From Oligoflexales bacterium (GTDB taxonomy: Bacteria > Bdellovibrionota_B > Oligoflexia > Oligoflexales > JAPPIL01), in contig OZ244057.1 in NCBI GenBank assembly GCA_965215515.1, positions 2,082,472-2,146,471 on the forward strand: DNA of 64,000 bases. The letters are read 5' to 3'. Under the pieces are notes generated by a model. That model ran no database searches. It was not told where the DNA came from and saw only the letters and a list, made by a program, of their open reading frames with translations. Below are positions 12,647-33,431 of the stretch, one piece after another (position 1 is the stretch's first letter; every line of letters begins with the position of its first letter). Made by a program: the position numbers and the translations under genes.

Positions 12647-14190
12647 TTTTTCATCATGCTCTGCAAATAATCCATTACCCCTCCTGCATTGCGGCGAATT
12701 TTCCACGCGCTGGTAGCCATATCTCGCACTGTCTCTTGCAGTTGTAGTTCAGTTTCAATCACACTTCCGCCCGCTTGAATGACACTTAATACATCAACCT
12801 GCCCTAAATTGAAACGCTCTTCCAGCAAAACAACCCGCCGCTTGCTACTACGCAATACTCGTTGCAAAACCTTGCGCTTTGCTGCCAAACGCTGCAAGCG
12901 CTCACATATCGTCAAAGCCGTAAGGCGCAAGCTATCTTGTGTCTGTTCAATGCTTAATTCAGTCATATGCTGTTGTTGCAAAGTGTTTTTGATGTCTACC
13001 CGTGCAGCATGATTGCCCAGCGTCATGTTAATACCCGCGGTGAGTGCCCAGGTCGGATTTACTGAGAGCAAGCTGCTGTTTACACTTTTGATGAGAGAAG
13101 CATCTGCACCGTTGTTGGCGAGACGCAGCGACACAAAAATATCGGGCAACATTTTGTCTTTGTGCATAAAAAGACGCTGGCGCAAGGCATCTTGGGAAGA
13201 ATATAAAAAATCTAACTGTGTCGAGTGCATGTTGTCGTAGTTATGTATCTGCCAGTCCCTGCACTTTGCCACCGCAAATTCAGTGTCATGTCCTAAAACA
13301 AGCGTGAGTTTTTCCATCTCAACATCGAGATATACACGTGGCAAACGCATCGGGATGACCAGCTGATACCAGATGTCTTTAAGCATTTTCTCCGTATCAC
13401 GCACCCGTTGGCGTGCGGTCGTCACCACATTCCTACTCTGTAACAAATCAGTCGTTTCTGCTGTGCCTAATTCATGCTTGGCATGCGTCACTTTGTACAA
13501 GCGACGCTGCAAGGACAACTGTCGCTGTGCAGCATTGAACTGCTCGTGCAAAAGCCACGCCCGATAATAAATATCAACAATGCCGAGCAGCATCTCTTCC
13601 ATCTTTACCGTCACCTGTTGTTCAGTCGCCTGCGCCTGTGTACGCGCTGCATCTAACTGTGCCGCAAAAGCTTTGCCAAAAAAATTACGCCCCAGACTTT
13701 GCTTGATAGTAACCGCAAGCTGCGACTGGTAATGATCGCTGTCGGGTATTTGCTCGGCACTGAACTCGCTGGCACGGTGTTCGAGCAGCCACTCGGCACT
13801 CAACGCCGTGCCCGTCTTGAACAGTTTGTGGTGAGTAAATTTGAGTTGGTAATGCTGGGTATGGTCGACGCTAAGCGGCCCAGCGGGTGTCTGTGCATTG
13901 CTGTTCAACAACGAGATGTTCGCTCCCACCTGTGCATCGAGCTGTGCCGCGATGCGCTCCCGTGCATTGTCCTTAACCAGCAGCTCGAGTTGCAATTTTT
14001 TGAACTGTGCGGTGTTGAGCACGCCCTTCAAAATCATCGGCAAGGTGAGTTGTAAACCGTCCTTGACAGAGGGAGGGGATGAAGGAACGTCGTGCGCAAA
14101 AATCGCACAACTGTGCACAAGGCAGCAAAATAACGACAGTAGGGTTGTCACGGTACCGAGCATACTATAGTATGGTAGCAGGTATCTCAC
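12643..14190 (-). CDS. TolC-like outer membrane efflux factor
   Basis: Signal peptide, long helical repeats and RFNLGQVDVLSVIQA; translationally coupled to the RND gene. Confidence 0.8.
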   Translation of the reverse strand: MRYLLPYYSMLGTVTTLLSLFCCLVHSCAIFAHDVPSSPPSVKDGLQLTLPMILKGVLNTAQFKKLQLELLVKDNARERIAAQLDAQVGANISLLNSNAQTPAGPLSVDHTQHYQLKFTHHKLFKTGTALSAEWLLEHRASEFSAEQIPDSDHYQSQLAVTIKQSLGRNFFGKAFAAQLDAARTQAQATEQQVTVKMEEMLLGIVDIYYRAWLLHEQFNAAQRQLSLQRRLYKVTHAKHELGTAETTDLLQSRNVVTTARQRVRDTEKMLKDIWYQLVIPMRLPRVYLDVEMEKLTLVLGHDTEFAVAKCRDWQIHNYDNMHSTQLDFLYSSQDALRQRLFMHKDKMLPDIFVSLRLANNGADASLIKSVNSSLLSVNPTWALTAGINMTLGNHAARVDIKNTLQQQHMTELSIEQTQDSLRLTALTICERLQRLAAKRKVLQRVLRSSKRRVVLLEERFNLGQVDVLSVIQAGGSVIETELQLQETVRDMATSAWKIRRNAGGVMDYLQSMMKK

Positions 14191-14227
14191 TCAGATTGAA
14201 CCAAAAATCGCCGTGGGTCAGCGACTA

Positions 14228-15406
14228 ATGACAGCAGCGGCCAGCACTACACCACAGACAGTTCGACCGCGAGTGATTACCAGTCGTTATCTTGATTTTT
14301 GGCTGTTGGGCGGAGCAAGTCTCGTCCTCTGGGCGTTGTTGATGCTACTCACGCCTTTTCGTGAGGACTCCGCTACTGTTAACAATTATCTCAACAGCAT
14401 CTCAGGCTTCTTCGTTACTTGCTTTTTGCTGGTCAACTACCCTCACTTCATGGCCTCGTACAAACTCGCCTACGGGATGGGGATGCGTTTCATTGGACGC
14501 AATTGGTTGCAACTGCTGCTTGTGCCGTTATTGCTGATCAGTTTGATTGTGCATGCTTTTTTCTATGCAGACATGTCTCCGTTTTGGACAGAACTGCTTA
14601 ATGAAGCGCTCCGCATCGTCGGCATTGAGGCTTCGTTTCAAGCTCCGTCCGACAACTACGGCACAGAAAGCATGGCGGTGTTATTGGCACTGATGTATGT
14701 CAGCGTCGGCTGGCACTACAGCAAACAAGCTTATGGTTGTATGATGGTATACAGCCACTACGATGGCTACCGTCTCGATGCTTGGCAACGGCGTTTTGTC
14801 AAATGGAGTCTGTTCAGCGTCTGGTTTGCCAACTACTTTGCCTATAACCGCGGCTACCAGCCTGGGGATCTCTACGGTATCAGCCAGTACCCGCTGGACT
14901 TCACTTCCTATGGCACTTACTTCGGCTATGGGTCATTCGTGGCCAGCCTAGCGGCACTGCTCGGTCTGGTAATTTTTAGGAACTATCGTACCTACAGGCA
15001 GCTACCCACCGCTAACTTTCTCATTCCTTACATCTCGTTGGTTGTCTGGTGGCTGCCACCCTTCAACCAACCCTTCTTCTACATGACAGCTGTGCCCTTT
15101 TTTCATTCATTGCAATATTTACCCTTCGTCTATCGGCTTGAAACACGCCAAACACCCGCTCATTATAGCGCCCTACGACGCAATGTCCACTACGCGGCAA
15201 TCATCGCTGCGTTGGTTGCTACAGGGTGGCTGAGCTTCAACCTCGTGCCCGAACAACTCGACCTCAGCTTTAATACCATCGGATTGATGAATGTTTGGTA
15301 TTTTACCGCTGCCTTTCATATTTTTATCAACATTCATCATTATTTTATCGATAACGTCATTTGGCGTTTTAATAACCCGAACATCAAGAGATACTTATTA
15401 ACTTAA
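14228..15406 (+). CDS. Polytopic membrane protein with conserved His motifs
   Basis: About 9 TM segments; PHFMASY, WHYSKQAYG, FHSLQYL and HHYFIDNVIW. Confidence 0.7.
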   Translation: MTAAASTTPQTVRPRVITSRYLDFWLLGGASLVLWALLMLLTPFREDSATVNNYLNSISGFFVTCFLLVNYPHFMASYKLAYGMGMRFIGRNWLQLLLVPLLLISLIVHAFFYADMSPFWTELLNEALRIVGIEASFQAPSDNYGTESMAVLLALMYVSVGWHYSKQAYGCMMVYSHYDGYRLDAWQRRFVKWSLFSVWFANYFAYNRGYQPGDLYGISQYPLDFTSYGTYFGYGSFVASLAALLGLVIFRNYRTYRQLPTANFLIPYISLVVWWLPPFNQPFFYMTAVPFFHSLQYLPFVYRLETRQTPAHYSALRRNVHYAAIIAALVATGWLSFNLVPEQLDLSFNTIGLMNVWYFTAAFHIFINIHHYFIDNVIWRFNNPNIKRYLLT

Positions 15407-15421
15407 ATCTGTGGAAATTTT

Positions 15422-17821
15422 ATGAATAAAACTCAGCTTAGGTGGTTGTTATTTTTTGTATTTATTGCTGCGGCGGCAGCTTTCTTTGTATTTGATGTGC
15501 AGCAGTTTTTAAGTTTTGCTTATTTGAAGGCACGGCATCTTGAGTTTAGAGAGTATTATGTCCAGCACACGTTGTTAACTGCGTTGTTTTATTTTTGTGT
15601 TTATGTGTTGGTCACGTCTTTGTCGGTGCCTGGGGCGTTGGTGATGACGATTGCGGGCGGGGCGATTTTTGGGGTGGTGTATGGCACGATAATTGTGTCG
15701 TTTGCTTCGACGATAGGGGCAACGCTGGCGTTTTTGGCGGCGCGCTTTATTTTGCGGGATTTTGTGCAGAATAAATTCGCGACGAAGTTGCGGACTATCA
15801 ACGCTGGGATGGAGAAAAACGGTGTATTTTATTTGTTTACTTTGCGTTTAGTGCCTATCTTTCCGTTTTTTATGATTAATATGGTGATGGGCTTGACAAG
15901 AATTAAAACATGGCATTTTTTCTTTGTCAGTCAGGTCGCGATGTTGCTCGGCACGGTGTTGTATGTTAATGCAGGAGCACAGTTGAGCAAGTTGCAGTCG
16001 CCCGCGGATATTTTATCGTGGCAGTTGTTGTTGTCGTTCGCGCTTCTGGGTATTTTTCCTCTGCTCGCGAAAAAAATAGTTGACGTTGTGAAAGCGAGGC
16101 GTGTGTATCGTGGTTTTACGCGCCCGCGTCATTATGATTACAATCTAGTCGTCATTGGGGCGGGAGCGGCAGGCTTGGTCAGTGCTTATATCGGAGCGAC
16201 GGTGAAGGCGAAGACGCTGTTGATTGAGAGGCACAAGATGGGAGGTGATTGTCTCAATACGGGGTGTGTACCGAGCAAGGCACTGCTAAAGTCGGCACAA
16301 ATTGCCGCTTTACAGCACAAGGCACGACGGTATGGGTTTGCTAAAATCGAGTTGTCGTATCTCTTCAGTGAGGTGATGGAGCGGGTGCAGAGGGTGATTG
16401 CGAAGGTTGAGCCGCACGATTCAGTAGCAAGATACAGTGCCCTAGGAGTTGAGTGTCGGCAAGGTGAAGCAAGAATTATCTCGCCGTATGAGGTGCAGGT
16501 AAAGGAGCGAGAAAGCAAAGCTGCTTTTAGTAACGCTCGCTTGCTAGCTCGCTCCTCACACTCAGATGTGGAGAGCGAAGCGGAGCGAGAAAGCGGCAAA
16601 AAAGCCTGGCGGAGCGAAGCGGAGCGAGAAAGCGGCAAAAAAGCCTGGCGGAGCGAAGCGGAGCGAGAAAGCGGCAAAAAAGCCTGGCGGAGCGAAGCGG
16701 AGCGAGAAAGCGGCAAAAAAGCCTGGCGGAGCGAAGCGGAGCGAGTGGTCACGGCGCGCAACATCATTATTGCTAGCGGTGCAACTCCGTTTGTGCCACC
16801 GTTGGCGGGGTTGGAGCAGGTTGACTACTACACTGCCGACACGATTTGGAGTTTGCGTGAGAGACCGTCGTGTATGTTGGTGCTTGGTGGCGGGCCGATC
16901 GGTTGTGAGTTAGCGCAAGCTTTTACGCGGCTCAGCGTAAAGGTGGTGCAATTGGAGCAGGGAACACGGCTGTTGCCGCGTGAAGATGTGGAAGTGTCTG
17001 ATTTTATGATGCAGGTGTTTCGTGACGAAGGTATTGAGGTGCTAACGGAGCATCGGGCGTTAAGTTTTGGCAAAGAGGAGGGCGGGAGTTTTGTTGTTTG
17101 TCGGCATAAGGAGCAGGAGAAAAAGATAAAGTTTGATGTGGTGTTGCTAGCGTTGGGACGCAGAGCGACGGTAACTGGTTTTTGTGGCGAGGCTATGCAG
17201 TTAGATTTAACCGAGCGGGGTACGTTGCAGGTTAATGATTATTTGCAGACCAATTATCCTAACATTTATGCTTGTGGTGATGTTGTTGGGCCGTATCAGT
17301 TCACGCACATGGCTGCGCATCAAGCGTGGTATTGTGCCGTCAATGCTTTGTTCTCGCCTGTGAGTTTCAAAGTCAACTACAGGGTTGTTCCTTGGTGCAC
17401 CTTTACTGATCCAGAGGTGGCACATGTGGGGCTGAGTGTTGCTGAGGCAGAGCGACGTGGTATTGCTTATGAGGTGACGATGTATGGTCTGGATGATCTT
17501 GACCGTGCCATTGCTGATAGCGACGATCGTGGTTTTGTCAAGGTATTGACTGCACCGAAGAGGGACAGGGTGCTCGGTGCAACGATTGTTGGCGCACGTG
17601 CGGGTGAGTTGATTACTGAGTTCGTCAGTGCGATGCAGCATGGCATTGGTCTGAACAAAATCCTCGCCACGATTCATATCTATCCGACCTTTGCCGAAGC
17701 CAACAAGTACGCGGCAGGCAACTGGAAGAAGACGCATGCTTCTGCCCGTGTGCTTGCTTATCTTGAGAAGTTGCATAGCTTGCGGCGGGGGGCAAACGAA
17801 AGGCGAGCACATGGAAGATAA
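15422..17821 (+). CDS. TVP38/VTT-domain + pyridine nucleotide-disulfide oxidoreductase (LpdA/MerA-like) fusion
   Basis: N-terminal LRLVPIFPFFMIN (VTT), GAGAAG, redox CLNTGC, GGGPIG, YACGD and HIYPTFAE. No C-terminal Cys pair, so not MerA. Carries a 78-aa repeat insertion. Confidence 0.9.
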   Translation: MNKTQLRWLLFFVFIAAAAAFFVFDVQQFLSFAYLKARHLEFREYYVQHTLLTALFYFCVYVLVTSLSVPGALVMTIAGGAIFGVVYGTIIVSFASTIGATLAFLAARFILRDFVQNKFATKLRTINAGMEKNGVFYLFTLRLVPIFPFFMINMVMGLTRIKTWHFFFVSQVAMLLGTVLYVNAGAQLSKLQSPADILSWQLLLSFALLGIFPLLAKKIVDVVKARRVYRGFTRPRHYDYNLVVIGAGAAGLVSAYIGATVKAKTLLIERHKMGGDCLNTGCVPSKALLKSAQIAALQHKARRYGFAKIELSYLFSEVMERVQRVIAKVEPHDSVARYSALGVECRQGEARIISPYEVQVKERESKAAFSNARLLARSSHSDVESEAERESGKKAWRSEAERESGKKAWRSEAERESGKKAWRSEAERESGKKAWRSEAERVVTARNIIIASGATPFVPPLAGLEQVDYYTADTIWSLRERPSCMLVLGGGPIGCELAQAFTRLSVKVVQLEQGTRLLPREDVEVSDFMMQVFRDEGIEVLTEHRALSFGKEEGGSFVVCRHKEQEKKIKFDVVLLALGRRATVTGFCGEAMQLDLTERGTLQVNDYLQTNYPNIYACGDVVGPYQFTHMAAHQAWYCAVNALFSPVSFKVNYRVVPWCTFTDPEVAHVGLSVAEAERRGIAYEVTMYGLDDLDRAIADSDDRGFVKVLTAPKRDRVLGATIVGARAGELITEFVSAMQHGIGLNKILATIHIYPTFAEANKYAAGNWKKTHASARVLAYLEKLHSLRRGANERRAHGR
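16504..16745 (+). repeat. In-frame 234-bp palindromic/39-bp-unit insertion bounded by ggagcgag
   Basis: ggagcgag at 16504, 16582, 16621, 16660, 16699 and 16738; four identical units ggagcgagaaagcggcaaaaaagcctggcggagcgaagc (13 aa per unit, SEAERESGKKAWR). Confidence 0.97.
17724..17794 (+). repeat. 71-bp direct repeat, left copy (3' end of oxidoreductase gene)
   Basis: ggaagaagacgcatgcttctgcccgtg...cttgcggcggggggca is repeated at 18772-18844. Confidence 0.95.
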
Positions 17822-18743
17822 TTGGCGCACGTCACCTAATGCCCACAATGATTTTATGGCCGCTTTGCTGGAGACAGCCGACGATTGTCGCGGCCTGCTA
17901 GCCTTAGCCGTCGCCAAAAACAAAGTGGACGACGTACGAGAGAAGAGGGTGACGCGTTTGCCAGCTGATCATCCTGATTTTAGGCAGGTAGTACGCCATC
18001 TCGATGCGGTGCTTGGGATGAACGCAGGCGAGGCCACTGGTGGCGAGGAAGCTTATGAACATATCTACCTGCTCGAATTCAAGAGTAGTCTGAGCAAACA
18101 CTCGCTGTTGCGGCAGTTGCTGGGTTATATCTTGATTTTACTGCGTTTTTGTACATTAGTGACCCCTATCGTCATCTACACAGGTAAACGTCCGCTGCCC
18201 GCAGTTCGTAAACGGATACGTCCCCATGCCTGGTTACAAACACTCATCGCCAATCGGTGTGGTGTTAGCCTCACCTGTGTCGTAGTGAACATAGCTGAGG
18301 TCAAACGCACCACCCTGCTGCGCTATGCTCCCACAATTGCAGCGGGACTGTACCTCGCCAAACATATCTACCACTTGACTGAAGCACACATTGCCCAGTT
18401 CTTTCAGCTGGCCAACACTATGCCCAAGGTTTGGCGAGAGAAGATGGTTGAAAAGGGTTGCGTATATATCATAAAATGCGTGGAGGGCTACGATTGGCGG
18501 CGTTTGGAACGCATCGAACGCGAGGTAGTACCAGAGAGGAGGCGTGTAGTGGCACGGGTAGCTTATAGCCGCGAGGCGGCCGTAGCCGAGGGTAAAGCCG
18601 AGGGTAAAGCCGAGGGTAGAGCCGAGGGACTGGCAGAAGTTGCTCAGCGCATGCTTGTGGAAGGCATGGATATCGAGATCATCTGCCGCACAACTGGTCT
18701 CACGCGCAGAGAGCTGACACGACTCAAGAAAAAACGCGCCTAG
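17811..18743 (+). CDS. Rpn family PD-(D/E)XK nuclease (recombination-promoting nuclease/putative transposase)
   Basis: AHNDF N-terminus, HLDAV...LLEFKSS, RQLLGY, IVIYTG, AEGKAEGKAEGRAEG repeat and a MLVEGMDIEIICRTTGL tail. Confidence 0.85.
   Translation: MEDNWRTSPNAHNDFMAALLETADDCRGLLALAVAKNKVDDVREKRVTRLPADHPDFRQVVRHLDAVLGMNAGEATGGEEAYEHIYLLEFKSSLSKHSLLRQLLGYILILLRFCTLVTPIVIYTGKRPLPAVRKRIRPHAWLQTLIANRCGVSLTCVVVNIAEVKRTTLLRYAPTIAAGLYLAKHIYHLTEAHIAQFFQLANTMPKVWREKMVEKGCVYIIKCVEGYDWRRLERIEREVVPERRRVVARVAYSREAAVAEGKAEGKAEGRAEGLAEVAQRMLVEGMDIEIICRTTGLTRRELTRLKKKRA
18549..18743 (+). CDS. Putative intragenic small protein (RpnS-like antitoxin)
   Basis: aggagg at 18537-18542, 6 nt before an in-frame GTG at 18549; 64 aa covering the EG repeat and C-terminal helices. 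Confidence 0.55.
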   Translation: MARVAYSREAAVAEGKAEGKAEGRAEGLAEVAQRMLVEGMDIEIICRTTGLTRRELTRLKKKRA

Positions 18744-18771
18744 CAACCATTCTCACGTGTGCGGGGGCATG

Positions 18772-18844
18772 GGAAGAAGACGCATGCTTCTGCCCGTGTG
18801 CTTGCTTTTATCTTGAGAAGTTGCATAGCTTGCGGCGAGGGGCA
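18772..18844 (+). repeat. Direct repeat, right copy, retaining the ancestral stop (...GAD*)
   Basis: Copy of 17724-17794 with 2 extra T and 1 substitution. It is followed by gattag, whose stop overlaps the convergent DUF4340 stop. Confidence 0.93.
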
Positions 18845-18846
18845 GA

Positions 18847-20385
18847 TTAGCCCCCCTGTGGATCGGGGCTGGTGTCGCTGAGGGCAGAATCTTTACTCTT
18901 CTCATTGTCCACAGTGTAAGCTTCAAGTAGACTGCGCGCGGCGACGTATACTTGCTCGCTGTTATTGTGTGTTACGTAGTATTGTTCTTCGCTCTCAGCA
19001 TGGGCGTGGAAAGAGATTTCTAGTTTGTTAATTTTTTGTTGATGTCTATCTTCCGTTGCTTCGTCGCTGCCGTCTGCCGTTTCCTTGTCATCAAAGTTTT
19101 CTTTGTCTTCCAGCCATAAAGTTATACGGCGGGCAGGCGGTTTAGCGAGGGTTTCTGTCACTTCCTTACGACCGACAAACTCGATTGCTTCTGCGGTTTC
19201 TAGACTGTCGAGCAGCAGATCGACCGAGTCGTTAGGCATAGGCTTGTTTTCTTCGGGTAGTTTGCCTTCTTTATCAAGTGCGGCACTACGATACCAATCA
19301 TTATCAACGCGTTGATAAGTTTCGCCATCGATATCAAGCTCGATAACCTCTGCGGTAGTGAAGGTGAAGATGCTGTGGTCGCGAAAATTTTCGCTCAGAT
19401 CGCGCACCTTTTCTTCAAAACTAGCGGGTAAACCGAACACTAGCTTGTCAGGTGCAAACGCGGCCAGCAGCTCACCCCGATCACGTACGAAGGTCAATTC
19501 CTTGCTTTCACCAGAGCTGAACTCAAATACGGCACTCATGACAATCTTGTTTGCGGTATTGAATTTTTTGGTTAGTTCCGCTGCGGGTGTGTCGATAAAT
19601 TTCTCCGCTCGTACTTGATCGAATGCCTCGATATACTCGCGGACTTTCTGTTGTGCTGTTTTAAAAGGTTCAGGCTTGAGCAGCTGAAATTTTCCTCCCT
19701 GCCGTGCCACCTCGTATACTTGTGATTCACGATGCCAGAAGGTCACCCGTGACAACTTTTCCGCATCGAGGACGAGCAGCTGTTTGTCGCGAAAATTAAA
19801 CAGGCCTTTTTCGGTTGAGTTCAGTACATATTGGCTGCCGAGATACACTTGCTGTTGCTTTTGTTGTTTTGTTGATCCCTTTACTTGAAAATAAGTGCTA
19901 TAGCCCACGGGGGCATTGTTGCCCAAGCGCAGTTCGTAACTGCTACCATCCTCTGCCTGCAGGGTAATTACCCGCCGTGGCTCTTGCAAGCCAAACTCCT
20001 GTAACTCGATGTTCTCTGTCTCAGTCTTAACAACTTCTTCTTCGTATTTGTAATCGAGTACTGTCTTAATAAAATCGCTCACCTCACGCTCATCGGCAGC
20101 TGTCTCCAGCGGGGCGACGATGCGCCATACACCGTCGATCATCTCCAGTATTACTTGTTTTGGTATGTTTGCCACTTCCGTTTCAGCGACATCGTCTGTC
20201 TGGTCATCAGTATCCTTCTGGGCATGATCGAGCAGGGTAATTTTACGTATTTGCTTTTCGTCAAGTGTGGTGAGCTTGCTTGCCTCTTCCTTCTCTTTTT
20301 GTTCTGTTTTTGTTTGCCATTCGTCCCACGTAGCCAGACCACCGAGTGCGAGCAGCACTGCGGCAAGAATTAGTGGTGTGCGCAT
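18847..20385 (-). CDS. DUF4340-domain periplasmic protein
   Basis: N-terminal TM, W.IVAP...AD, FGLQEP, LRLGNNAPVG..TY and repeated FRDK/FRDH motifs; last gene of the ABC cluster. Confidence 0.75.
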   Translation of the reverse strand: MRTPLILAAVLLALGGLATWDEWQTKTEQKEKEEASKLTTLDEKQIRKITLLDHAQKDTDDQTDDVAETEVANIPKQVILEMIDGVWRIVAPLETAADEREVSDFIKTVLDYKYEEEVVKTETENIELQEFGLQEPRRVITLQAEDGSSYELRLGNNAPVGYSTYFQVKGSTKQQKQQQVYLGSQYVLNSTEKGLFNFRDKQLLVLDAEKLSRVTFWHRESQVYEVARQGGKFQLLKPEPFKTAQQKVREYIEAFDQVRAEKFIDTPAAELTKKFNTANKIVMSAVFEFSSGESKELTFVRDRGELLAAFAPDKLVFGLPASFEEKVRDLSENFRDHSIFTFTTAEVIELDIDGETYQRVDNDWYRSAALDKEGKLPEENKPMPNDSVDLLLDSLETAEAIEFVGRKEVTETLAKPPARRITLWLEDKENFDDKETADGSDEATEDRHQQKINKLEISFHAHAESEEQYYVTHNNSEQVYVAARSLLEAYTVDNEKSKDSALSDTSPDPQGG

Positions 20386-20390
20386 AAACT

Positions 20391-22034
20391 TCACAACGAC
20401 CTCCGTCTCAGCCAACTAACCACACCGCTGCCCATAAAAACGATGGGATAGAAGAAGCAGATCAGCTTTAGTATCAATTGGCTCATGCTTGAAGTTAGGG
20501 CAATCGAGCTTTTCTGCACGTCTTTGGGACGCAGTGAGATAAAATCTTCGTCTTTCAGGAGGAAGTTGGTCATGTTGACAAACATGTCGCGATGTTCGAC
20601 TGCTGCTTGTACTCCCTGGTTACGAGCAAAGTGGGATGAGCCAGTGACAATTAGGCGCACTTGCCTTTCCTCCGCGGTCGGTAGCGCTTTGTTGTCCACG
20701 TCTTTTGCCTCTTCTTTTTTGCTTTGTTCTGTACCTGCATCAGCCAGTTGTGGTGTCTTGGTTTTGCCTGTTGCCACGGCAATCACGGCGAATTGGCCTG
20801 CGGTCACTCGATCTTGTGTAATCTCACCGAGATCGGATTTGTCGGTAACGTTATCGACCTTGACGATTGTTGTGGAGGTCTTGGCCACTAATTCGACGTT
20901 CATCTTATGTTTGTTATCTTCTACCTTTGCTAGTGAGCGCACGTTAGGCATTAGCAGGGTCGCGGCACTTTGTCGTGCAAAGTCTTTGGTCACGCTATGA
21001 AAATCATCGAAGTCGGTCACCAGAGCGTTGTTTTGCCCTAGCAGCAGGGCGCGTGGATCATCGGGAGGCAGCAGTAGCAGGTCGTTGTTGATTTTAACGC
21101 CAAATTCTTCGGTGAATGCTGCAAGGTTATTCATTTTCGTTACCGCATCGAACATCACCAACAGCGCTCCACCGCGTTGCAAATAATTACGCAAAAAATT
21201 AATTTCTTCTTTGCGCAGATCGTAACGAGGCCCTGCCACCACCACTAAATCTGCATCAGCTGGCACTTTACCTGTCTCTAGCAACATCAGTGCTTCGGTG
21301 CTGTATTTGTTGTTTTCCATCTCCTGCACGACAAAGTCGTAGCCTAGGGGACTTTTTGCTCCCAGTTCACCCTCACCGTGCCCACGGGTGAAATAAACTT
21401 TCTTTGATTTGTCCTTCAGCACCTTGACCAGGGCGTTGGTAAGTTTTTCCTCTGTGAAGGTGGCGATACGTGTTTCCAGCTTGCCGCGTCGAAAAATTAC
21501 CGTGTTACCAGAGGTCAACTTGTCCGCCATCGCTTGTGTCGGTTTCTGGCGCGGGTCAAGCCAACTGACATTAAACTCTGCACCTTCTATCTCATATAGG
21601 GAGAGCAAATTCTTGAAATTATCTTTTGTTCCTTGGTCTTGAAACCAAGCTGTAATCCTGAGCGGTTCTGTGCTCTCCTTGACCTTGGCGATAACTTTCA
21701 ACGACTGGTCAGACAGGGTGTTGGTTTGCGAACGGGTCACGTCAAAGCTCTTGTTGAATCGTGCTCGGGATGACAACAGTGCCACTGCTACGATAATGGC
21801 GATGCCCAGCACTACTGTCAAACTTGAGCTTGCGCCAAACTTCGAGCCTTTACGCCGCAAGAATTTCTTGAAATTTTCGATATCCCACGAAATCCAGAAA
21901 ACTACTAGCGCCACCGCTAGCACTAGACTAGAACTACCCACCCAGACCAGCCCAGGGTAGGAAGACTTGACCGCGGCACCGATTGCCGCTACCAGCACGG
22001 CTAAAAAAGGCAAAATAAAAAGTCCTGACCTCAT
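20391..22034 (-). CDS. GldG-like ABC auxiliary component
   Basis: FDVTRSQTNTLS, VYFTRGHGE, VVAGPRYD, IVTGSSHF and N-terminal TMs. Confidence 0.85.
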   Translation of the reverse strand: MRSGLFILPFLAVLVAAIGAAVKSSYPGLVWVGSSSLVLAVALVVFWISWDIENFKKFLRRKGSKFGASSSLTVVLGIAIIVAVALLSSRARFNKSFDVTRSQTNTLSDQSLKVIAKVKESTEPLRITAWFQDQGTKDNFKNLLSLYEIEGAEFNVSWLDPRQKPTQAMADKLTSGNTVIFRRGKLETRIATFTEEKLTNALVKVLKDKSKKVYFTRGHGEGELGAKSPLGYDFVVQEMENNKYSTEALMLLETGKVPADADLVVVAGPRYDLRKEEINFLRNYLQRGGALLVMFDAVTKMNNLAAFTEEFGVKINNDLLLLPPDDPRALLLGQNNALVTDFDDFHSVTKDFARQSAATLLMPNVRSLAKVEDNKHKMNVELVAKTSTTIVKVDNVTDKSDLGEITQDRVTAGQFAVIAVATGKTKTPQLADAGTEQSKKEEAKDVDNKALPTAEERQVRLIVTGSSHFARNQGVQAAVEHRDMFVNMTNFLLKDEDFISLRPKDVQKSSIALTSSMSQLILKLICFFYPIVFMGSGVVSWLRRRSL

Positions 22035-23756: not shown

Positions 23757-23904
23757 CACTCCCACCTGTCCCTGAAACGTCACTGAATAAGCAACAAGCG
23801 ACATTTTGACAAAACTTAACGTGCTTGTCTACCCCTTTATGCACATCCACCCTCCTGCCTTCGCGGTGAGCGTGTGCGGTTGGTGTATGTCACTGATGAT
23901 CTAC

Positions 23905-24462
23905 TTAGGGATGGAAGTCGCGCAGCTTGAACCCTTGCGGGAAGGAGACGAGTTCTTTGCTGGTTTCGGTTGGATGGATGAGCAGTAGTCCTTGTTGTTG
24001 TGCGTAGGCTTGCACTGCAGCGCTGGCACTGAGAAAACCGATTGCGCCGTAAATTTTCTTGCCCTTAAAGGTCGGTGCAAGCTCAGTGAATATTTTGAGT
24101 TTTCCCGCGACGAAGTTTTTGACATCCGTCTCCTTCAGAGTAGACTTGGCTTCGATGACGACCACCACGCCATCACCGTCCGCGATGCCATCGATTTCCC
24201 ACTCCTTGCCGTTATAATCTTTGCGAAGGTTGGTGTACAGAGTGTGCACCTCGATGCCATCGGCAGAGTTGAGGACGGCAATGGACTCGCCGACCGTCAT
24301 GGCCTCACCGAGATCACCCCACTTGTTGCTCAATCCACCGATATTCTTCGCCAGCTTGTCAACTCTCGCATCCGTCTGCTTGAACCTAATCGCGACCTCA
24401 CGGAATAGTGCCCAAACATCCTCAAGAGTCGGCCTTTTCTTCTTCTTACTCTTGCCTGCCAT
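23905..24462 (-). CDS. DUF3782-like PD-(D/E)XK protein, tandem copy 1
   Basis: MAGKSKKKK start, IGGLSNKWGDLGE and EIDGIA...IEAK. Confidence 0.75.
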   Translation of the reverse strand: MAGKSKKKKRPTLEDVWALFREVAIRFKQTDARVDKLAKNIGGLSNKWGDLGEAMTVGESIAVLNSADGIEVHTLYTNLRKDYNGKEWEIDGIADGDGVVVVIEAKSTLKETDVKNFVAGKLKIFTELAPTFKGKKIYGAIGFLSASAAVQAYAQQQGLLLIHPTETSKELVSFPQGFKLRDFHP

Positions 24463-26170: not shown

Positions 26171-26517
26171 GTTCCCCTCCTACCTTGTAAAAGAAACCGC
26201 GTCTGCCTGCTGTTTCGCCAAATTAGCCGATAAGTTTAGTTTCTTACATAATTGATTGATATTACAGCAAAAATTAGAAGTCAATTGCCATCAGGCGGTG
26301 TGCCGACGACAGCAGCCTACCCGCACGGCAAACACAACCTCTACTGACCATTCTACCACACTCACCTGACCAAAACACATCATGTCGCCCAGTTTTTTCA
26401 GCTGACTAACACCCTGCCCGCAGTTTGGCAGAGAAGGCAAGGCTGAGGGGATGATGCTGGTAGATCAGAGCCTGAAGAGACCGCGCATGCCACACGAACC
26501 TACGCTGTCCGCAAATT

Positions 26518-26957
26518 TCAATCTGCCCCTCGCCGCAAGCTATGCAACTTCTCAAGATAAGCAAGCACACGGGCAGGAGCATGCGTCTTCTTCCAGTTGC
26601 CTGCCGCGTACTTGTTGGCTTCGGCAAAGGTCGGATAGATATGAATCGTGGCGAGGATTTTGTTCAGACCAATGCCATGCTGCATCGCACTGACGAACTC
26701 AGTAATCAACTCACCAGCACGTGCGCCAACAATCGTTGCACCGAACACCCTGTCCCTCTTCGGTGCAGTCAATACTTTGACAAAACCACGATCGTCGCTA
26801 TCAGCAATGGCACGGTCAAGATCATCCAGACCATAAAGCAATACCACGTCGCTCTGCCTCAGCAACACTCAGCCCCACATGTGCCACCTCTGGGTCAGTA
26901 AACGTACACCAAGGGACAACCCTGTAGTTGACTTTGAAACTCACAGGCGAAAACAAA
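26518..26957 (-). pseudogene. Inverted duplicate of the oxidoreductase 3' end (about 17347-17794)
   Basis: Near-identical, with several SNPs and a 14-bp frameshifting deletion; ends LRRGAD*. Confidence 0.92.
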
Positions 26958-29737: not shown

Positions 29738-29761
29738 GGTTATGGTAAGTTTGACTGTGGT
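29738..29761 (+). repeat. 24-bp direct repeat left of the Rpn array
   Basis: ggttatggtaagtttgactgtggt; 23/24 match to 33616-33639. Confidence 0.8.
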
Positions 29762-29844
29762 TATGTTGGGAAATTTGGCCGCATTTGTTAGCCAAGTACA
29801 CCAGCCTCGTGTTAAAATATCGAGCACAGCATGACAGGGTGAAC

Positions 29845-30927
29845 ATGATTGGGCGACGAAGACGCATAGGGCAGAAAAGACAGCGCCACAAGGCTGCCAA
29901 AGCCCGTCACTCCCACCCTCATGACAGCGTCTTCAAGACAATCTTCAAGCGTCCCGAACACTGCCGTGCCTTGCTGCAGGTCTTGCTTTCCCCTAGCTTC
30001 TACGCCATCTTCAATTGGCCCGCGCTGCAGATCACCGAAAGCACCGCAGCGGGAAGGAAGGGACAGGAACGCAGAGCTGACATCGTACTGGAAGTGCCGT
30101 TGTGGCCTTCCAAAGCCCGTGTCATCATCACTATCATCTTGGAGCACAAGAGTTATCGTGACAACGACACCATCCTGCAGATGCTGGGCTATTACAACGA
30201 GATCGCCCAACAGACGGGCGGCATCATCCTCCCCATCATCGTCACCTGTGGCAAGGACAAGAGAGCAGTTATCCCCTCCGATTACCTTAGTTGGGCACTG
30301 CAAAGGCAGGGTGCACCCGAAGAGTTGAGGCGGCAACTGAAGAAAATTGCCAATTTTGCTTGTCCTTTAGTGAACTTACACGATTTATCCTACCGTCGCA
30401 TGCGCCGCGGAGGCGAGGTGGTGAGCTTGGCGTTGTTCGGCATACGTAACTACTGGGATATGGACGAAGAGGTAGTGGTCAAGATTCTCAAGAAGGCACG
30501 CCTGTTGCCACAACAGGAGCGAGAGTTTATGCTCAATGTGTTAATGGACTATTACGAATGTGCCGATAAGGGGTACGACGTGAGGGGGTTTGCGGAGATT
30601 GAACGTAAGCGTTTTCCACACCTGAAGGAGGAAGAGAGACTGATGCCAGAGATGGAATTTGGCCTTGATAGAGCGAGACAAGAGGGCATACGGCAGGGTA
30701 TGCGCAAGGGCAAGCGGCAAGGTATCGAGCAGGGTATCGAGCAGGGTATCGAGCAGGGTATCGAGCAGGGTATCGAGCAGGGTATGCGCAAGGGCGTAGA
30801 GCAAAAGCAGCGGGATGTTGTCGCGCGGATGTTGGCGAGAGGTCTGCCTGACAAGCAGATCTGTGACGTTACACAGGTTAGCACAAAAGAGCTAGCTGAC
30901 ATTAAGCGCGAGCTGCAAAAAAGCTGA
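29845..30927 (+). CDS. Rpn family nuclease, tandem copy 1 (5 GIEQ units)
   Basis: HPHDSVFK, RRADIV...ILEHKS, QMLGYY, EG/GIEQ repeats and a MLARGLPDKQICDVTQVS tail. Confidence 0.9.
   Translation: MIGRRRRIGQKRQRHKAAKARHSHPHDSVFKTIFKRPEHCRALLQVLLSPSFYAIFNWPALQITESTAAGRKGQERRADIVLEVPLWPSKARVIITIILEHKSYRDNDTILQMLGYYNEIAQQTGGIILPIIVTCGKDKRAVIPSDYLSWALQRQGAPEELRRQLKKIANFACPLVNLHDLSYRRMRRGGEVVSLALFGIRNYWDMDEEVVVKILKKARLLPQQEREFMLNVLMDYYECADKGYDVRGFAEIERKRFPHLKEEERLMPEMEFGLDRARQEGIRQGMRKGKRQGIEQGIEQGIEQGIEQGIEQGMRKGVEQKQRDVVARMLARGLPDKQICDVTQVSTKELADIKRELQKS
30643..30927 (+). CDS. Putative intragenic RpnS-like protein, copy 1
   Basis: aaggagg at 30625-30631 upstream of the in-frame ATG 30643 (MPEMEFGLDRARQEG...). 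Equivalent starts lie at 31901 and 33135. Confidence 0.55.
   Translation: MPEMEFGLDRARQEGIRQGMRKGKRQGIEQGIEQGIEQGIEQGIEQGMRKGVEQKQRDVVARMLARGLPDKQICDVTQVSTKELADIKRELQKS
30721..30780 (+). repeat. 12-bp VNTR (ggtatcgagcag, GIEQ) x5; x3 at 31979-32014; x6 at 33213-33284
   Basis: Direct count in the sequence. Confidence 0.97.
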
Positions 30928-31102
30928 TCGTCAAGTAGCTCACAAATTTGCCCATCAAGTATGATACACAGTGATTCCTGAGTTCCGTGAGCAAAGCGAA
31001 TACTTATCGCGGCTGCCTGAGTGAGGTAGTCCGCGAGTGCATTTGTTAGCCAAGTACACCAGCCTCGTGTTAAAATATCGAACACAGCATGACAAGGTGA
31101 AC

Positions 31103-32161
31103 ATGACTGGGCGACGAAGACGCATAGGGCGGAAGAGACAGCGCCGCAAGGCTGCCAAAGCCCGTCACTCCCACCCTCATGACAGCGTCTTCAAGACAAT
31201 CTTCAAGCGTCCCGAACACTGCCGTGCCTTGCTACAGGTCTTGCTTTCCCCTAGCTTCTACGCCATCTTCAATTGGCCCGCGCTGCAGATCACCGAAAGC
31301 ACCGCAGCGGGAAGGAAGGGACAGGAACGCAGAGCTGACATCGTACTGGAAGTGCCGTTGTGGCCTTCCAAAGCCCGTGTCATCATCACTATCATCTTGG
31401 AGCACAAGAGTTACCGTGACAACGACACCATCCTGCAGATGCTGGGCTATTACAACGAGATCGCCCAACAGACAGGCGGCATCATCCTCCCCATCATCGT
31501 CACCTGTGGCAAGGACAAGAGAGCAGTTATCCCCTCCGATTACCTTAGTTGGGCACTGCAAAGGCAGGGTGCACCCGAAGAGTTGAGGCGGCAACTGAAG
31601 AAAATTGCCAATTTTGCTTGTCCTTTAGTGAACTTACACGATTTATCCTACCGTCGCATGCGCCGCGGAGGCGAGGTGGTGAGCTTGGCGTTGTTCGGCA
31701 TACGTAACTACTGGGATATGGACGAGGAGGTAGTGGTCAAGATTCTCAAGAAGGCACGCCTGTTGCCACAACAGGAGCGAGAGTTTATGCTCAATGTGTT
31801 AATGGACTACTACGAATGTGCCGATAAGGGGTACGACGTGAGGGGGTTTGCGGAGATTGAACGTAAGCGTTTTCCACACCTGAAGGAGGAAGAAAGACTG
31901 ATGCCAGAGATGGAATTTGGCCTTGATAGAGCGAGACAAGAGGGCATACGGCAGGGTATGCGCAAAGGCAAGCGGCAAGGTATCGAGCAAGGTATCGAGC
32001 AAGGTATCGAGCAGGGTATGCGCAAGGGCGTAGAGCAAAAGCAGCGGGATGTTGTCGCGCGGATGTTGGCGAGAGGTCTGCCTGACAAGCAGATCTGTGA
32101 CGTTACACAGGTTAGCACAAAAGAGCTAGCTGACATTAAGCGCGAGCTGCAAAAAAGCTGA
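31103..32161 (+). CDS. Rpn family nuclease, tandem copy 2 (3 GIEQ units)
   Basis: Near-identical to copy 1; the stops are 1,234 bp apart. Confidence 0.9.
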   Translation: MTGRRRRIGRKRQRRKAAKARHSHPHDSVFKTIFKRPEHCRALLQVLLSPSFYAIFNWPALQITESTAAGRKGQERRADIVLEVPLWPSKARVIITIILEHKSYRDNDTILQMLGYYNEIAQQTGGIILPIIVTCGKDKRAVIPSDYLSWALQRQGAPEELRRQLKKIANFACPLVNLHDLSYRRMRRGGEVVSLALFGIRNYWDMDEEVVVKILKKARLLPQQEREFMLNVLMDYYECADKGYDVRGFAEIERKRFPHLKEEERLMPEMEFGLDRARQEGIRQGMRKGKRQGIEQGIEQGIEQGMRKGVEQKQRDVVARMLARGLPDKQICDVTQVSTKELADIKRELQKS

Positions 32162-32336
32162 TCGTCAAGTAGCTCACAAATTTGCCCATCAAGTATGATA
32201 CACAGTGATTCCTGAGTTCCGTGAGCAAAGCGAATACTTATCGCGGCTGCCTGAGTGAGGTAGTCCGCGAGTGCATTTGTTAGCCAAGTACACCAGCCTC
32301 GTGTTAAAATATCGAACACAGCATGACAAGGTGAAC

Positions 32337-33431
32337 ATGACTGGGCGACGAAGACGCATAGGGCGGAAGAGACAGCGCCGCAAGGCTGCCAAAGCCCGTC
32401 ACTCCCACCCTCATGACAGCGTCTTCAAGACAATCTTCAAGCGTCCCGAACACTGCCGTGCCTTGCTACAGGTCTTGCTTTCCCCTAGCTTCTACACCAT
32501 CTTCAATTGGCCCGCGCTGCAGATCACCGAAAGCACCGCAGCGGGAAGGAAGGGACAGGAACGCAGAGCTGACATCGTACTGGAAGTGCCGTTGTGGCCT
32601 TCCAAAGCCCGTGTCATCATCACTATCATCTTGGAGCACAAGAGTTACCGTGACAACGACACCATCCTGCAGATGCTGGGCTATTACAACGAGATCGCCC
32701 AACAGACAGGCGGTATAATCCTTCCCATCATCGTCACCTGTGGCAAGGACAAGAGAGCAGTTATCCCCTCCGATTACCTTAGTTGGGCACTGCAAAGGCA
32801 GGGTGCACCCGAAGAGTTGAGGCGGCAACTGAAGAAAATTGCCAATTTTGCTTGTCCTTTAGTGAACTTACACGATTTATCCTACCGTCGCATGCGCCGC
32901 GGAGGCGAGGTGGTGAGCTTGGCGTTGTTCGGCATACGTAACTACTGGGATATGGACGAAGAGGTAGTGGTCAAGATTCTCAAGAAGGCACGCCTGTTGC
33001 CACAACAGGAGCGAGAGTTTATGCTCAATGTGTTAATGGACTACTACGAATGTGCCGATAAGGGGTACGACGTGAGGGGGTTTGCGGAGATTGAACGTAA
33101 GCGTTTTCCACACCTGAAGGAGGAAGAGAGACTGATGCCAGAGATGGAATTTGGCCTTGATAGAGCGAGACAAGAGGGCATACGGCAGGGTATGCGCAAA
33201 GGCAAGCGGCAAGGTATCGAGCAGGGTATCGAGCAGGGTATCGAGCAGGGTATCGAGCAGGGTATCGAGCAAGGTATCGAGCAGGGTATGCGCAAGGGCG
33301 TAGAGCAAAAGCAGCGGGATGTCGTCGCGCGGATGTTGGCGAGAGGTATGCCTGACAAGCAGATCTGTGACGTTACACAGGTTAGCACAAAAGAGCTAGC
33401 TGACATTAAGCATGAGCTGCAAAAAAGCTGA
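32337..33431 (+). CDS. Rpn family nuclease, tandem copy 3 (6 GIEQ units)
   Basis: Near-identical; differs at FYTIF, GMPD and KHELQ. Confidence 0.9.
   Translation: MTGRRRRIGRKRQRRKAAKARHSHPHDSVFKTIFKRPEHCRALLQVLLSPSFYTIFNWPALQITESTAAGRKGQERRADIVLEVPLWPSKARVIITIILEHKSYRDNDTILQMLGYYNEIAQQTGGIILPIIVTCGKDKRAVIPSDYLSWALQRQGAPEELRRQLKKIANFACPLVNLHDLSYRRMRRGGEVVSLALFGIRNYWDMDEEVVVKILKKARLLPQQEREFMLNVLMDYYECADKGYDVRGFAEIERKRFPHLKEEERLMPEMEFGLDRARQEGIRQGMRKGKRQGIEQGIEQGIEQGIEQGIEQGIEQGMRKGVEQKQRDVVARMLARGMPDKQICDVTQVSTKELADIKHELQKS

What the first reader, a model, noticed from the sequence alone, without database searches (positions are those of the whole stretch)
17724..18850. Rpn nuclease gene sits between 71-bp direct repeats of the host gene end, an insertion footprint
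Seen: 17724-17794 is repeated at 18772-18844. The right copy continues gattag (...LRRGAD*), with a stop overlapping the convergent DUF4340 stop. The independent gene fragment at 26.5 kb also ends LRRGAD*. The ancestral locus therefore ended GAD*, and about 1 kb carrying only the Rpn gene was added with a 71-bp duplication, changing the C-terminus to GANERRAHGR. Established: Rpn/YhgA-like proteins were long called transposases, but no ends or target duplications are known for them, and E. coli Rpns promote RecA-independent recombination. Inference: rare direct evidence of how a solitary rpn gene arrives (long duplication, no terminal inverted repeats), with an excision route by recombination between the repeats.
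Basis: partly seen in the sequence, partly recalled or inferred. Interest (0 to 1): 0.75.

Follow-up and report, generated by a model that had tools for sequence, protein, structure and literature searches.

The report
Rpn gene inserted with long duplication
A single Rpn-family nuclease gene was pasted into the last codons of another gene along with a 71-base copy of the insertion site, and similar footprints of 27 to 309 bases surround other rpn genes in this and two related genomes, which is a concrete clue to how these so-called putative transposase genes spread.

Summary
Window 17724-17794 recurs at 18772-18844, with one substitution and a TT indel. The repeats bracket a 977-bp insert that holds one ORF (17811-18743).

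The ORF is a divergent Rpn/YhgA-like nuclease. It has no direct Pfam hit, but it aligns over its full length to the genome's other paralogs, which pass PF04754, and it keeps the D...ExK motif.

The right copy and a third copy at 26520-26957 keep the older end ...LRRGAD*. Same-genus orthologs end ...RRG* and have no rpn next to them.

A survey of all 31 rpn-family ORFs in this 2.18-Mb Oligoflexales genome found the same bracket at other loci. The direct repeats are 269, 309, 149 and 70 nt, and a 27-nt pair flanks a tandem array. Only 2 of 300 control genes have a comparable repeat. Two of these loci have empty sites in same-genus genomes, with the repeat present once. Two related genomes add further cases (about 45-85 nt and 45 nt).

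The inserts have no terminal inverted repeats. Near-identical copies have ragged ends, and repeat length varies. This is not classical transposition. I read it as non-site-specific insertion with a long target duplication. Who makes the breaks is open. The W locus has no empty-site allele, and a few non-rpn genes show the same bracket.

The parts
15422..17821 (+). Host gene: a VTT/DedA-like membrane domain fused to an FAD pyridine-nucleotide-disulfide oxidoreductase (799 aa). Its last 9 residues (...ANERRAHGR*) come from the insert.
   Evidence: Pfam PF09335, PF07992 and PF02852. Orthologs in G001 and G002 are 84-86% identical and end ...RRG*.
17724..17794 (+). Left copy (A) of the duplicated target, 71 nt. 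It is still the coding 3' end of the host gene.
17795..17810 (+). 5' flank of the insert (16 nt, AACGAAAGGCGAGCAC). This is too short to hold a promoter, so the rpn gene is probably read through from the host gene.
   Evidence: Read from the sequence. No other copy exists in the genome.
17811..18743 (+). Divergent Rpn/YhgA-like nuclease gene (310 aa). It keeps the motifs HND..., RHLDAV and LLEFKS (D...ExK), an (AEGK)n four-residue repeat, and a C-terminal helix-turn-helix-like tail.
   Evidence: TIGR01784 matches only the C-terminus (37 bits, cut-off 52). There is no Pfam hit. It aligns over aa 8-309 to a profile of the other paralogs (E 4e-35), and those paralogs pass PF04754. A 65% identical ortholog sits at a different locus in G002.
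18549..18743 (+). Possible internal RpnS-like small protein. GAGGAGG at 18536-18542 is followed by an in-frame GTG at 18549, just before the AEGK repeats.
   Evidence: Read from the sequence, by analogy with PMC10400941. Not tested.
18744..18771 (+). 3' flank of the insert (28 nt). It resembles the sequence downstream of the degraded rpn remnant at 26.4-26.5 kb and of the G002 ortholog, so it is probably part of the donor unit.
   Evidence: compared by eye. This is an inference.
18772..18850 (+). Right copy (B) of the duplicated target (18772-18844) plus the relic GATTAG, which is the old end ...GAD* of the host gene. B carries a frame-breaking TT insertion and is now non-coding.
18847..20415 (-). 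Convergent DUF4340 gene, the first gene of an ABC-transporter-associated operon. Its stop overlaps the relic stop of copy B.
   Evidence: Pfam PF14238.
26520..26957 (-). Third copy (C): a 435-nt pseudogene fragment of the host gene's 3' end. It has a 14-nt deletion and ends ...LRRGAD*(TGA). It is part of an inverted partial duplicate of 9759-17798.
26336..26519 (+). Degraded rpn remnant that abuts the GATT end of copy C.
   Evidence: aa 179-211, 52% identity, one internal stop. repeat D7. The rest is read by eye.
29755..33431 (+). Three tandem rpn genes of the recently active F1 subfamily. The array is bracketed by a 27-nt direct repeat (29735-29761 and 33613-33639).

Best explanation
A 977-bp segment was inserted after codon 791 of the VTT-oxidoreductase gene. 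The segment carries one divergent Rpn-family nuclease gene with only 16 nt of 5' flank and 28 nt of 3' flank. The insertion event also duplicated the preceding 71 bp of target, so the insert lies between two copies of the gene's end. The left copy keeps the host gene open with a new 9-residue tail. The right copy is a decaying relic of the old ...GAD* end.

The process is not classical transposition. It is non-site-specific insertion of a gene-sized DNA copy at a break, with tens to hundreds of bases of target duplicated. Either of two routes would produce this: fill-in of widely staggered nicks, or a replication template switch that re-enters the target behind the point where it left.

Shown: the insertion and duplication, the recurrence at other loci, empty sites at two other loci, ragged ends, and the absence of inverted repeats.

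Inferred: the molecular route, whether Rpn nucleases make the initiating breaks, and that the flanking repeats later act as substrates for unequal crossing-over (amplification into arrays, or deletion).
For: The anatomy of A, B and C and the relic stop come. Same-genus orthologs end ...RRG* with no rpn adjacent, and the closest W-type rpn (65% identity) sits at another locus in G002.

The genome survey found 31 rpn-family ORFs. Solitary rpn genes are bracketed by unrelated direct repeats of 269 nt (98.5%), 309 nt (96%), 149 nt (93%), 70 nt (80%) and 71 nt, with inserts of 977-1242 nt. Only 2 of 300 control genes have such a repeat, giving Fisher p about 2e-5.

Empty sites exist for two loci. 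At locus a in G001, and at locus c (just upstream of an rpoD-like gene) in both G001 and G002, the flanking genes are adjacent, the repeat sequence occurs once, and there is no rpn-profile hit.

Two further cases come from relatives. In G002 an rpn gene sits after a duplicated last 45-85 nt of another rpn gene. In G003 a perfect 45-nt bracket surrounds an rpn gene.

Seven F1 copies at 94-99% identity have non-coincident ends on both sides. There are no terminal inverted repeats. A DR-rpn(deleted)-DR-rpn-DR array at 417 kb shows that the repeats do recombine. Both junctions appear in unitigs from three samples. The ragged ends match what PMC10400941 reports.
Against: No empty-site allele of this locus was found in reads, protein clusters or relatives. 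Gene order downstream of the host gene is not conserved in G001 or G002, where DUF4340 lies 13-33 kb away. The host-DUF4340 adjacency therefore cannot be shown to be ancestral.

The region is prone to rearrangement. Copy C belongs to an inverted partial duplicate, so B could in principle be a leftover of a separate duplication.

Junction microhomology is 0-3 nt, and the apparent homeology at the right junction is not significant. Break-joining and template switching therefore cannot be told apart.

A NYN-domain gene (71-nt DR), a DNA methylase pair (99-nt DR) and a radical-SAM cassette (52-nt DR) carry the same bracket, so the process may not be specific to rpn. One of the five loci (d) is part of a larger segmental duplication and is not independent. 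Locus b is weak at 80% identity.
Confidence: 0.75

Rival explanations
1. Rpn mobilises its own gene. The nuclease cuts out or copies the DNA that encodes it and makes widely staggered nicks at the target. Fill-in of those nicks gives long target-site duplications of variable length. This would be a transposase-independent, selfish nuclease-gene transposition.
For: The cargo is almost always exactly one rpn gene with minimal flanks. In an unbiased scan of direct-repeat pairs, roughly 7-9 of the repeat-bracketed segments hold rpn, although rpn genes make up about 1.4% of the genome. F1 has 7 copies at 94-99% identity, which indicates recent copying. The family has expanded only in this lineage: 6 of 61 genomes of the order carry it, with up to 58 or more copies in G001. 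RpnA is a low-specificity endonuclease that promotes RecA-independent recombination (PMC5350276).
Against: Non-rpn cargo shows the same bracket. Copy ends are ragged rather than defined. PMC10400941 found no evidence of autonomous transposition, and no autonomous PD-(D/E)XK transposase is known. Nothing here shows that Rpn catalyses the event.
Confidence: 0.2
2. The rpn gene was already next to the host gene, and copy B arose separately. For example, B could be the remnant of a segmental duplication like the inverted one that produced copy C. On this view the bracket is not an insertion footprint.
For: The neighbourhood carries an inverted partial duplicate of 9.76-17.8 kb whose boundary (GATT) lies 4 nt from the A/insert junction. 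Downstream synteny is not conserved in relatives.
Against: Orthologs in two same-genus species have no rpn after the gene. The homologous rpn in G002 is at another locus. B keeps the native stop, which overlaps the DUF4340 stop. The identical architecture at loci a and c is shown to be insertion plus duplication by their empty sites.
Confidence: 0.07
3. Site-specific or Campbell-type integration. A circular element carrying a copy of the gene's end recombined with the chromosome, as integrative islands do at the 3' ends of tRNA genes. This would leave att-like direct repeats.
For: Direct repeats of a gene's 3' end flanking an insert are the classic signature of integrase-mediated islands.
Against: The 977-bp insert holds one ORF and no integrase. 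The repeats at different loci are unrelated in sequence and range from 27 to 309 nt. Some repeats are intergenic or promoter DNA rather than gene ends. A circle would need locus-specific homology before its first arrival.
Confidence: 0.04
4. Assembly artefact: the repeat or the insert is a mis-join in a metagenome-assembled genome.
For: The genome is a MAG, and repeats are where assemblies tend to fail.
Against: Unitigs from three samples span A-end/insert/B-start (17758-18801) and B-end/DUF4340 (18819 onward) at depths matching the flanks. A low-depth run from another study also carries pieces of rpn and the B-DUF4340 junction. A and B differ by private changes.
Confidence: 0.02

Closest known systems
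Rpn (YhgA-like, PF04754/COG5464) recombination-promoting nucleases of E. coli (RpnA-E), now viewed as toxin/intragenic-antitoxin phage-defence genes
   Same: The N-terminal PD-(D/E)XK-type motifs are the same. The C-terminal tail is variable and contains four-residue repeats (AEGK here). The genes are solitary single genes, occur in many copies in some genomes, form tandem arrays, have ragged region ends, and lack inverted repeats (PMC5350276, PMC10400941).
   Different: The published analyses report no target-site duplications. Here several rpn genes sit between long (27-309 nt) duplications of their target, and empty sites exist in relatives. The gene in the finding is too divergent to hit PF04754 directly.
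Insertion sequences (DDE and other transposases) with target-site duplications
   Same: A single-gene unit is found at many sites and is flanked by duplicated target.
   Different: IS duplications are short (2-14 bp) and of fixed length for each element, and the ends are defined and usually inverted repeats. Here the duplications are 27-309 nt and variable, the ends differ between near-identical copies, and there are no inverted repeats.
Templated insertions with flanking duplication from replication template switching (FoSTeS/MMBIR) or from fill-in of paired offset nicks
   Same: The outcome is copy-and-paste. Duplication length is variable and long. The inserts can be composite (a 127-nt repeated module plus rpn at locus a). 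An inverted duplication lies nearby.
   Different: Those processes are cargo-neutral. Here the cargo is mostly one gene family. Microhomology at the junctions is minimal (0-3 nt) and not significant.
Free-standing homing endonuclease genes
   Same: A nuclease gene spreads as a minimal single-gene unit, presumably through breaks and repair.
   Different: Homing targets one cognate site and copies the gene by homologous repair, without duplicating the target. Here the sites are unrelated and the target is duplicated.
Integrase-mediated islands at gene 3' ends (attL/attR repeats)
   Same: A direct repeat of a gene's 3' end flanks the insert, and the host gene stays open.
   Different: There is no integrase and no common att core, and the repeat length and sequence differ at every locus.

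Membership tests
Rpn / YhgA-like (PF04754, TIGR01784, COG5464) | Direct match of the protein to the curated family models above their cut-offs | tested here: not met
   Pfam gives no hit even at E<=10. TIGR01784 matches only aa 228-304 at 37 bits, against a cut-off of 52.1.
Rpn / YhgA-like (PF04754, TIGR01784, COG5464) | Full-length homology to proteins that do pass the family model | tested here: met
   A profile of the other full-length paralogs in the genome matches aa 8-309 at E 4e-35. Four of those paralogs pass PF04754 at 28-47 bits, against a cut-off of 21.
Rpn / YhgA-like (PF04754, TIGR01784, COG5464) | PD-(D/E)XK catalytic motif (D ... E-x-K/Q) and the N-terminal H-D/N-x-x-F motif | tested here: met
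   In the profile alignment, AHNDF, RHLDAV and LLEFKS align with HDxxF, RRaDlv and lEhKs. These residues are conserved in the G002 ortholog.
Rpn / YhgA-like (PF04754, TIGR01784, COG5464) | Variable C-terminal tail with four-amino-acid repeats and an internally translated RpnS antitoxin | tested here: inconclusive
   AEGKAEGKAEGRAEG is present, and the repeat number differs in the G002 ortholog and in the 740-kb paralog. A Shine-Dalgarno-like GAGGAGG precedes an in-frame GTG at 18549. Translation was not tested. No PDB sequence match was found.
Rpn / YhgA-like (PF04754, TIGR01784, COG5464) | DNA endonuclease activity, toxicity, and phage defence | not testable with these tools
   These need expression and assay.
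Classical insertion sequence / transposon | Terminal inverted repeats | tested here: not met
   For all five inserts, the best local inverted match between the 60-nt ends falls within the shuffled expectation. No inverted repeat lies at the insert ends.
Classical insertion sequence / transposon | Defined element ends shared by all copies | tested here: not met
   Seven F1 copies at 94-99% identity start and stop at different positions on both sides.
Classical insertion sequence / transposon | Short target-site duplication of fixed length | tested here: not met
   The duplications are 27, 45, 70, 71, 149, 269 and 309 nt.
Integrase-mediated integrative element | Recombinase gene in the element and a common att core in the flanking repeats | tested here: not met
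   The insert holds one ORF, and the repeats at different loci are unrelated in sequence.
Retroposed gene copy | Reverse transcriptase available in the genome | tested here: not met
   PF00078 has no match in the genome.
Ku/LigD end-joining capture of a DNA fragment | Ku present in the genome | tested here: not met
   PF02735 has no match in the genome. LigD was not searched.
Microhomology-mediated template switching (MMBIR/FoSTeS-like) | Microhomology at the junctions | tested here: inconclusive
   Microhomology is 0-3 nt. The apparent 24-nt homeology at the right junction of W is matched by 11% of random 24-mers.

The most novel reading that the evidence does not exclude
Rpn nucleases drive a previously undescribed kind of gene mobility. 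The nuclease makes widely offset nicks, and a gene-sized copy of its own locus (occasionally of other genes) is captured there. This leaves long target duplications of variable length, with no defined ends, no inverted repeats and no transposase. It would explain the patchy, multi-copy distribution of rpn genes across bacteria. It would also explain how tandem rpn arrays arise, through recombination between the duplications.
Probability: 0.25. Interest if true: 0.85.

Novelty: new variant of a known kind. Interest (0 to 1): 0.62.

Why it matters
Rpn/YhgA-like genes occur in dozens of phyla, often in many copies, and are still widely annotated as putative transposases. The current literature states that they lack inverted repeats and target duplications and are not autonomously mobile (PMC10400941), so how they multiply within a genome is an open question.

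This Oligoflexales lineage offers natural before-and-after pairs. It has filled sites with long target duplications and empty sites in sister species. It also has a young subfamily of seven copies at 94-99% identity. These turn the question into something testable: which breaks, which repair route, and whether the nuclease itself is needed.

There are two practical consequences. First, insertions of this kind preserve both neighbouring genes. One sits immediately upstream of an rpoD-like gene, and one alters only the last residues of an oxidoreductase. Second, the flanking repeats make the genes easy to amplify or lose.

Tried and rejected
(1) Looking for an empty-site allele of this locus. 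Unitigs from four runs show only the filled form and no joints. The 90% protein cluster of the host protein holds only the window's own two sequences. Same-genus genomes lack rpn after the gene, but their downstream gene order differs. The locus itself therefore has no clean empty site.

(2) Junctional homeology. By eye, the 3' flank of the insert looked 17/24 identical to the host sequence just upstream of copy A. Shuffling gives p about 0.03, and 11% of random 24-mers score as well, so I rejected it as evidence.

(3) Terminal inverted repeats. None were found.

(4) Retroposition and Ku-dependent end joining. No reverse transcriptase and no Ku are present in the genome.

(5) The same survey in G001, which has at least 58 rpn matches. 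The flanks there are full of other repeats and tandem arrays, so the brackets could not be read cleanly. I did not count them.

(6) Locus d (149-nt repeat) turned out to be part of a larger segmental duplication shared with the 417-kb locus, and its left flank is a four-copy block. It is not an independent insertion.

(7) The 2.26-kb insertion in G002 at the same intergenic spot as locus a is not an rpn gene.

(8) A PDB sequence search with the protein found nothing. No structure prediction was run.


Full report
**The observation**

The window sequence and the repeat search show that 17724-17794 and 18772-18844 are direct repeats. A whole-genome BLAST finds only one further copy, at 26594-26520 on the minus strand.

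A three-way alignment shows one private change in each copy:
- Copy A has G where B and C have A (GCGGGGGGCA against GCGAGGGGCA).
- Copy B has a TT insertion.
- Copy C has C where A and B have T.

After the shared GGGGCA the copies diverge:
- A runs into AACGAAAGGCGAGCACATGG..., giving the new tail ...GANERRAHGR*.
- B runs into GATTAG (...GAD*). Its stop overlaps the stop of the convergent DUF4340 gene (18847-20415).
- C runs into GATTGA (...GAD*).

The 977 bp between A and B hold a single ORF, 17811-18743. Its ATG overlaps the new stop of the host gene.

Unitigs from three samples span both junctions (17758-18801, and 18819 onward) at depths like the flanks. A low-depth run from another study also carries parts of the structure.

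**The genes**

The host gene (15422-17821) is a fusion of a VTT/DedA-type membrane domain with a pyridine-nucleotide-disulfide oxidoreductase.

The inserted ORF has no Pfam hit even at E<=10. It matches TIGR01784 (Rpn family) only in its last 77 residues and below the cut-off.

Even so, jackhmmer links it to 30 other ORFs in the same 2.18-Mb genome. Four of those that I tested pass PF04754. A profile built from the paralogs without this protein aligns to residues 8-309 at E 4e-35. In that alignment AHNDF, RHLDAV and LLEFKS fall on the family's HDxxF, D and ExK positions.

The C-terminal part has AEGK four-residue repeats. Their number differs in the 65%-identical ortholog of G002 and in a paralog. 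This is the hypervariable feature described for RpnS/RpnL (PMC10400941).

I therefore file the gene as a divergent member of the Rpn family. The direct-model test was not met, but the indirect homology and motif tests were.

**Was it inserted?**

Same-genus genomes G001 and G002 carry orthologs of the host gene (84-86% identity). G002 is an Oligoflexales MAG, OZ245333.1. The orthologs end ...WHSWRRG* and ...WHKFRRG* and have no rpn behind them.

The closest relative of the inserted gene lies at another locus in G002. The B/C-type end (...RRGAD*) is therefore the older state, and the rpn-host adjacency is unique to this genome.

One check could not be made. Genes downstream of the host gene differ in all three genomes, and DUF4340 lies 13-33 kb away in the relatives. 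No clean empty site exists for this locus. Reads and protein clusters did not supply one either.

**The genome-wide survey**

For each of the 31 rpn-family ORFs I compared the left and right flanks.

Solitary rpn genes are bracketed by direct repeats at five loci:

| Locus | Position | Repeat | Identity |
|---|---|---|---|
| a | 229 kb | 269 nt | 98.5% |
| c | 1749 kb | 309 nt | 96% |
| d | 1919 kb | 149 nt | 93% |
| b | 279 kb | 70 nt | 80% |
| W (this finding) | window 17.7 kb | 71 nt | 96% |

The three-gene array in the window (29755-33431) lies between 27-nt repeats. The inserts are 977-1242 nt, which is one gene with short flanks. The repeat sequences are unrelated from one locus to the next.

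Among 300 random ORFs of similar size, only two have a flanking direct repeat of at least 50 nt, and both are below 83% identity. Fisher p is about 2e-5.

**Empty sites at loci a and c**

At locus a the flanks are the 3' end of a lipoprotein-like gene and the 5' end of an MBL-fold hydrolase gene. At locus c they are the 5' end and promoter region of an rpoD-like sigma-70 gene and of a divergent small gene.

In G001 (locus a), and in both G001 and G002 (locus c), the same flanking genes are adjacent. The repeat sequence is present once, spacing is collinear, and no rpn-profile hit exists. These are direct before-and-after pairs. They show that an rpn gene arrived together with a 269-nt or 309-nt duplication of the target.

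In both cases the duplication leaves both neighbouring genes intact.

**Further cases in relatives**

- In G002 a second rpn gene follows the W-type rpn gene and is itself followed by a second copy of that gene's last 45-85 nt (...LLKRGMKLNK*).
- In G003, a different genus of the same family, a perfect 45-nt repeat brackets a 1296-nt rpn insert.
- Within the order, PF04754 genes occur in only 6 of 61 sampled genomes. They are expanded in this family: 14 or more in G000, 58 or more in G001.

**What kind of mobility**

There are no terminal inverted repeats.

The young F1 subfamily has seven copies at 94-99% identity. One is solitary with a 269-nt bracket, one is solitary without a bracket, and the rest form arrays of two and three. 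The shared sequence starts and stops at different positions in different copies. The locus-a insert also carries a 127-nt module that is repeated six other times in the genome.

Repeat lengths range from 27 to 309 nt. None of this fits a transposase with defined ends, an integrase with an att core, or homing to a cognate site.

The genome has no reverse transcriptase and no Ku. That argues against retroposition and classical end joining.

Junction microhomology is 0-3 nt. A tempting 17/24 similarity at the right junction of W is not significant.

The features that remain are a copy-and-paste outcome, ragged ends, composite inserts and long variable duplications. Either fill-in of widely offset nicks followed by capture of a DNA copy, or replication template switching that re-enters the target behind the exit point, would explain them. 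The data do not separate the two.

The 417-kb locus is DR-rpn(deleted)-DR-rpn-DR. This shows that the brackets recombine, which is the route to arrays and, reciprocally, to loss. Loss itself was not observed.

**Limits on specificity**

An unbiased scan for direct-repeat pairs (at least 50 nt, at least 88% identity, 0.4-4 kb apart) returns 30 pairs. Many hold rpn genes. Most of the rest are tandem paralogs.

Three look like the same kind of insertion with other cargo:
- a NYN-domain gene (71-nt repeat),
- a DNA methylase with a partner ORF (99-nt repeat),
- a radical-SAM/ASCH cassette (52-nt repeat).

The process may therefore be a general way in which accessory, possibly defence, genes enter this lineage's chromosome, with rpn genes as the commonest cargo. 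Alternatively Rpn nucleases may supply the breaks in trans. I cannot tell which.

**The third copy**

Copy C is not a free-standing fragment. 9759-10859 recurs inverted at 29591-28491 at 99.9% identity, and 17347-17798 recurs inverted at 26957-26520 at about 95%.

The inverted partial duplicate is bounded by a degraded rpn remnant (26336-26519) on one side and by the F1 array on the other. Its GATT boundary lies 4 nt from the A/insert junction.

C still records the pre-insertion end of the gene. It also shows that this neighbourhood has been broken and rejoined more than once near rpn genes.

**Comparison with what is known**

Kingston et al. (PMC5350276) showed that RpnA is a low-specificity endonuclease that promotes RecA-independent recombination, and they left the genes' own mobility open.

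Zhong et al. (PMC10400941) reported that rpn genes are gained and lost as single genes with variable region ends. They found no inverted repeats and no target-site duplications, attributed arrays to tandem duplication, and found no evidence of autonomous transposition.

The ragged ends and arrays seen here agree with that account. The recurrent long target duplications, with matching empty sites, are new relative to it.

**Verdict**

The feature is a new variant of a known kind: a known gene family with a previously undescribed insertion footprint. My confidence is about 0.75 that this locus is an insertion with target duplication. It is about 0.25 that Rpn itself drives the process.

Noticed in passing
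window 16573-16767: Four tandem 39-nt units (three of them identical) lie in frame inside the host gene, in the linker between the VTT domain and the oxidoreductase domain. Orthologs in G001 and G002 align only to aa 1-364 and 439-791, so this linker repeat appears specific to this genome.
   Followed up: partly
window 26520-29591 versus 9759-17798: This is an inverted partial duplicate. 9759-10859 (an AcrB-like gene segment) recurs at 29591-28491 at 99.9% identity, and 17347-17798 recurs at 26957-26520 at about 95%. The interior is replaced by about 1.5 kb that includes a Type ISP C-terminal-domain ORF (27171-28712). Both ends of the duplicate abut rpn sequences. The two arms differ strongly in divergence, which a single event does not explain.
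   Followed up: partly
window 26336-26519: A degraded rpn remnant lies here. It has about 33 codons matching aa 179-211 with an internal stop, then traces of the EGKAEG repeat and the C-terminal tail. Its 3' end is joined to the GATT end of the host-gene fragment in convergent orientation.
   Followed up: partly
G000 229506-229632, with copies at 578978, 1164865, 1869579, 1930872, 304541 and a partial copy at 1845785: A roughly 127-nt repeated module (ATCGTCGGACTGAAATGC...GGGAAATTTACC) forms the left part of the locus-a insert. At other sites it follows conserved sequence that looks like the end of another repeated element. Its last 26 nt also precede the first gene of the window's rpn array.
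   Followed up: partly
G000 321616-322745, 281344-283035 and 1168604-1171260: Three non-rpn segments are bracketed by long direct repeats: a NYN-domain gene (71 nt, 96%), a DNA methylase plus an unknown ORF (99 nt, 96%), and a radical-SAM/ASCH cassette (52 nt, 96%). The footprint is the same as for rpn genes. I did not look for empty sites.
   Followed up: partly
L074 3900-5330 (G002, OZ245333.1): A second rpn gene is inserted right after the W-type rpn gene. It is followed by a duplicate of that gene's last codons and stop (...LLKRGMKLNK*).
   Followed up: partly
L069 1270-3527 (G002): G002 carries an unrelated 2.26-kb insertion (a 563-aa ORF, with a 123-nt tandem repeat beside it) at almost the same intergenic position where G000 has the locus-a rpn insertion. 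This may be an insertion hotspot.
   Followed up: no
G000 415900-419411, 239986-241087, 1600343-1601055 and 1918435-1920986: A four-copy block consists of the 5' end and upstream region of a large (1211-aa type) gene plus an adjacent rpn gene or fragment. The 417-kb copy is a DR-rpn-DR-rpn-DR array.
   Followed up: partly
window 23900-25310: Direct repeats of 300 nt (91%) and 166 nt (95%) are spaced 659-689 nt apart among short paralogous ORFs between the ABC transporter operon and a pilin-like gene. I did not examine them.
   Followed up: no
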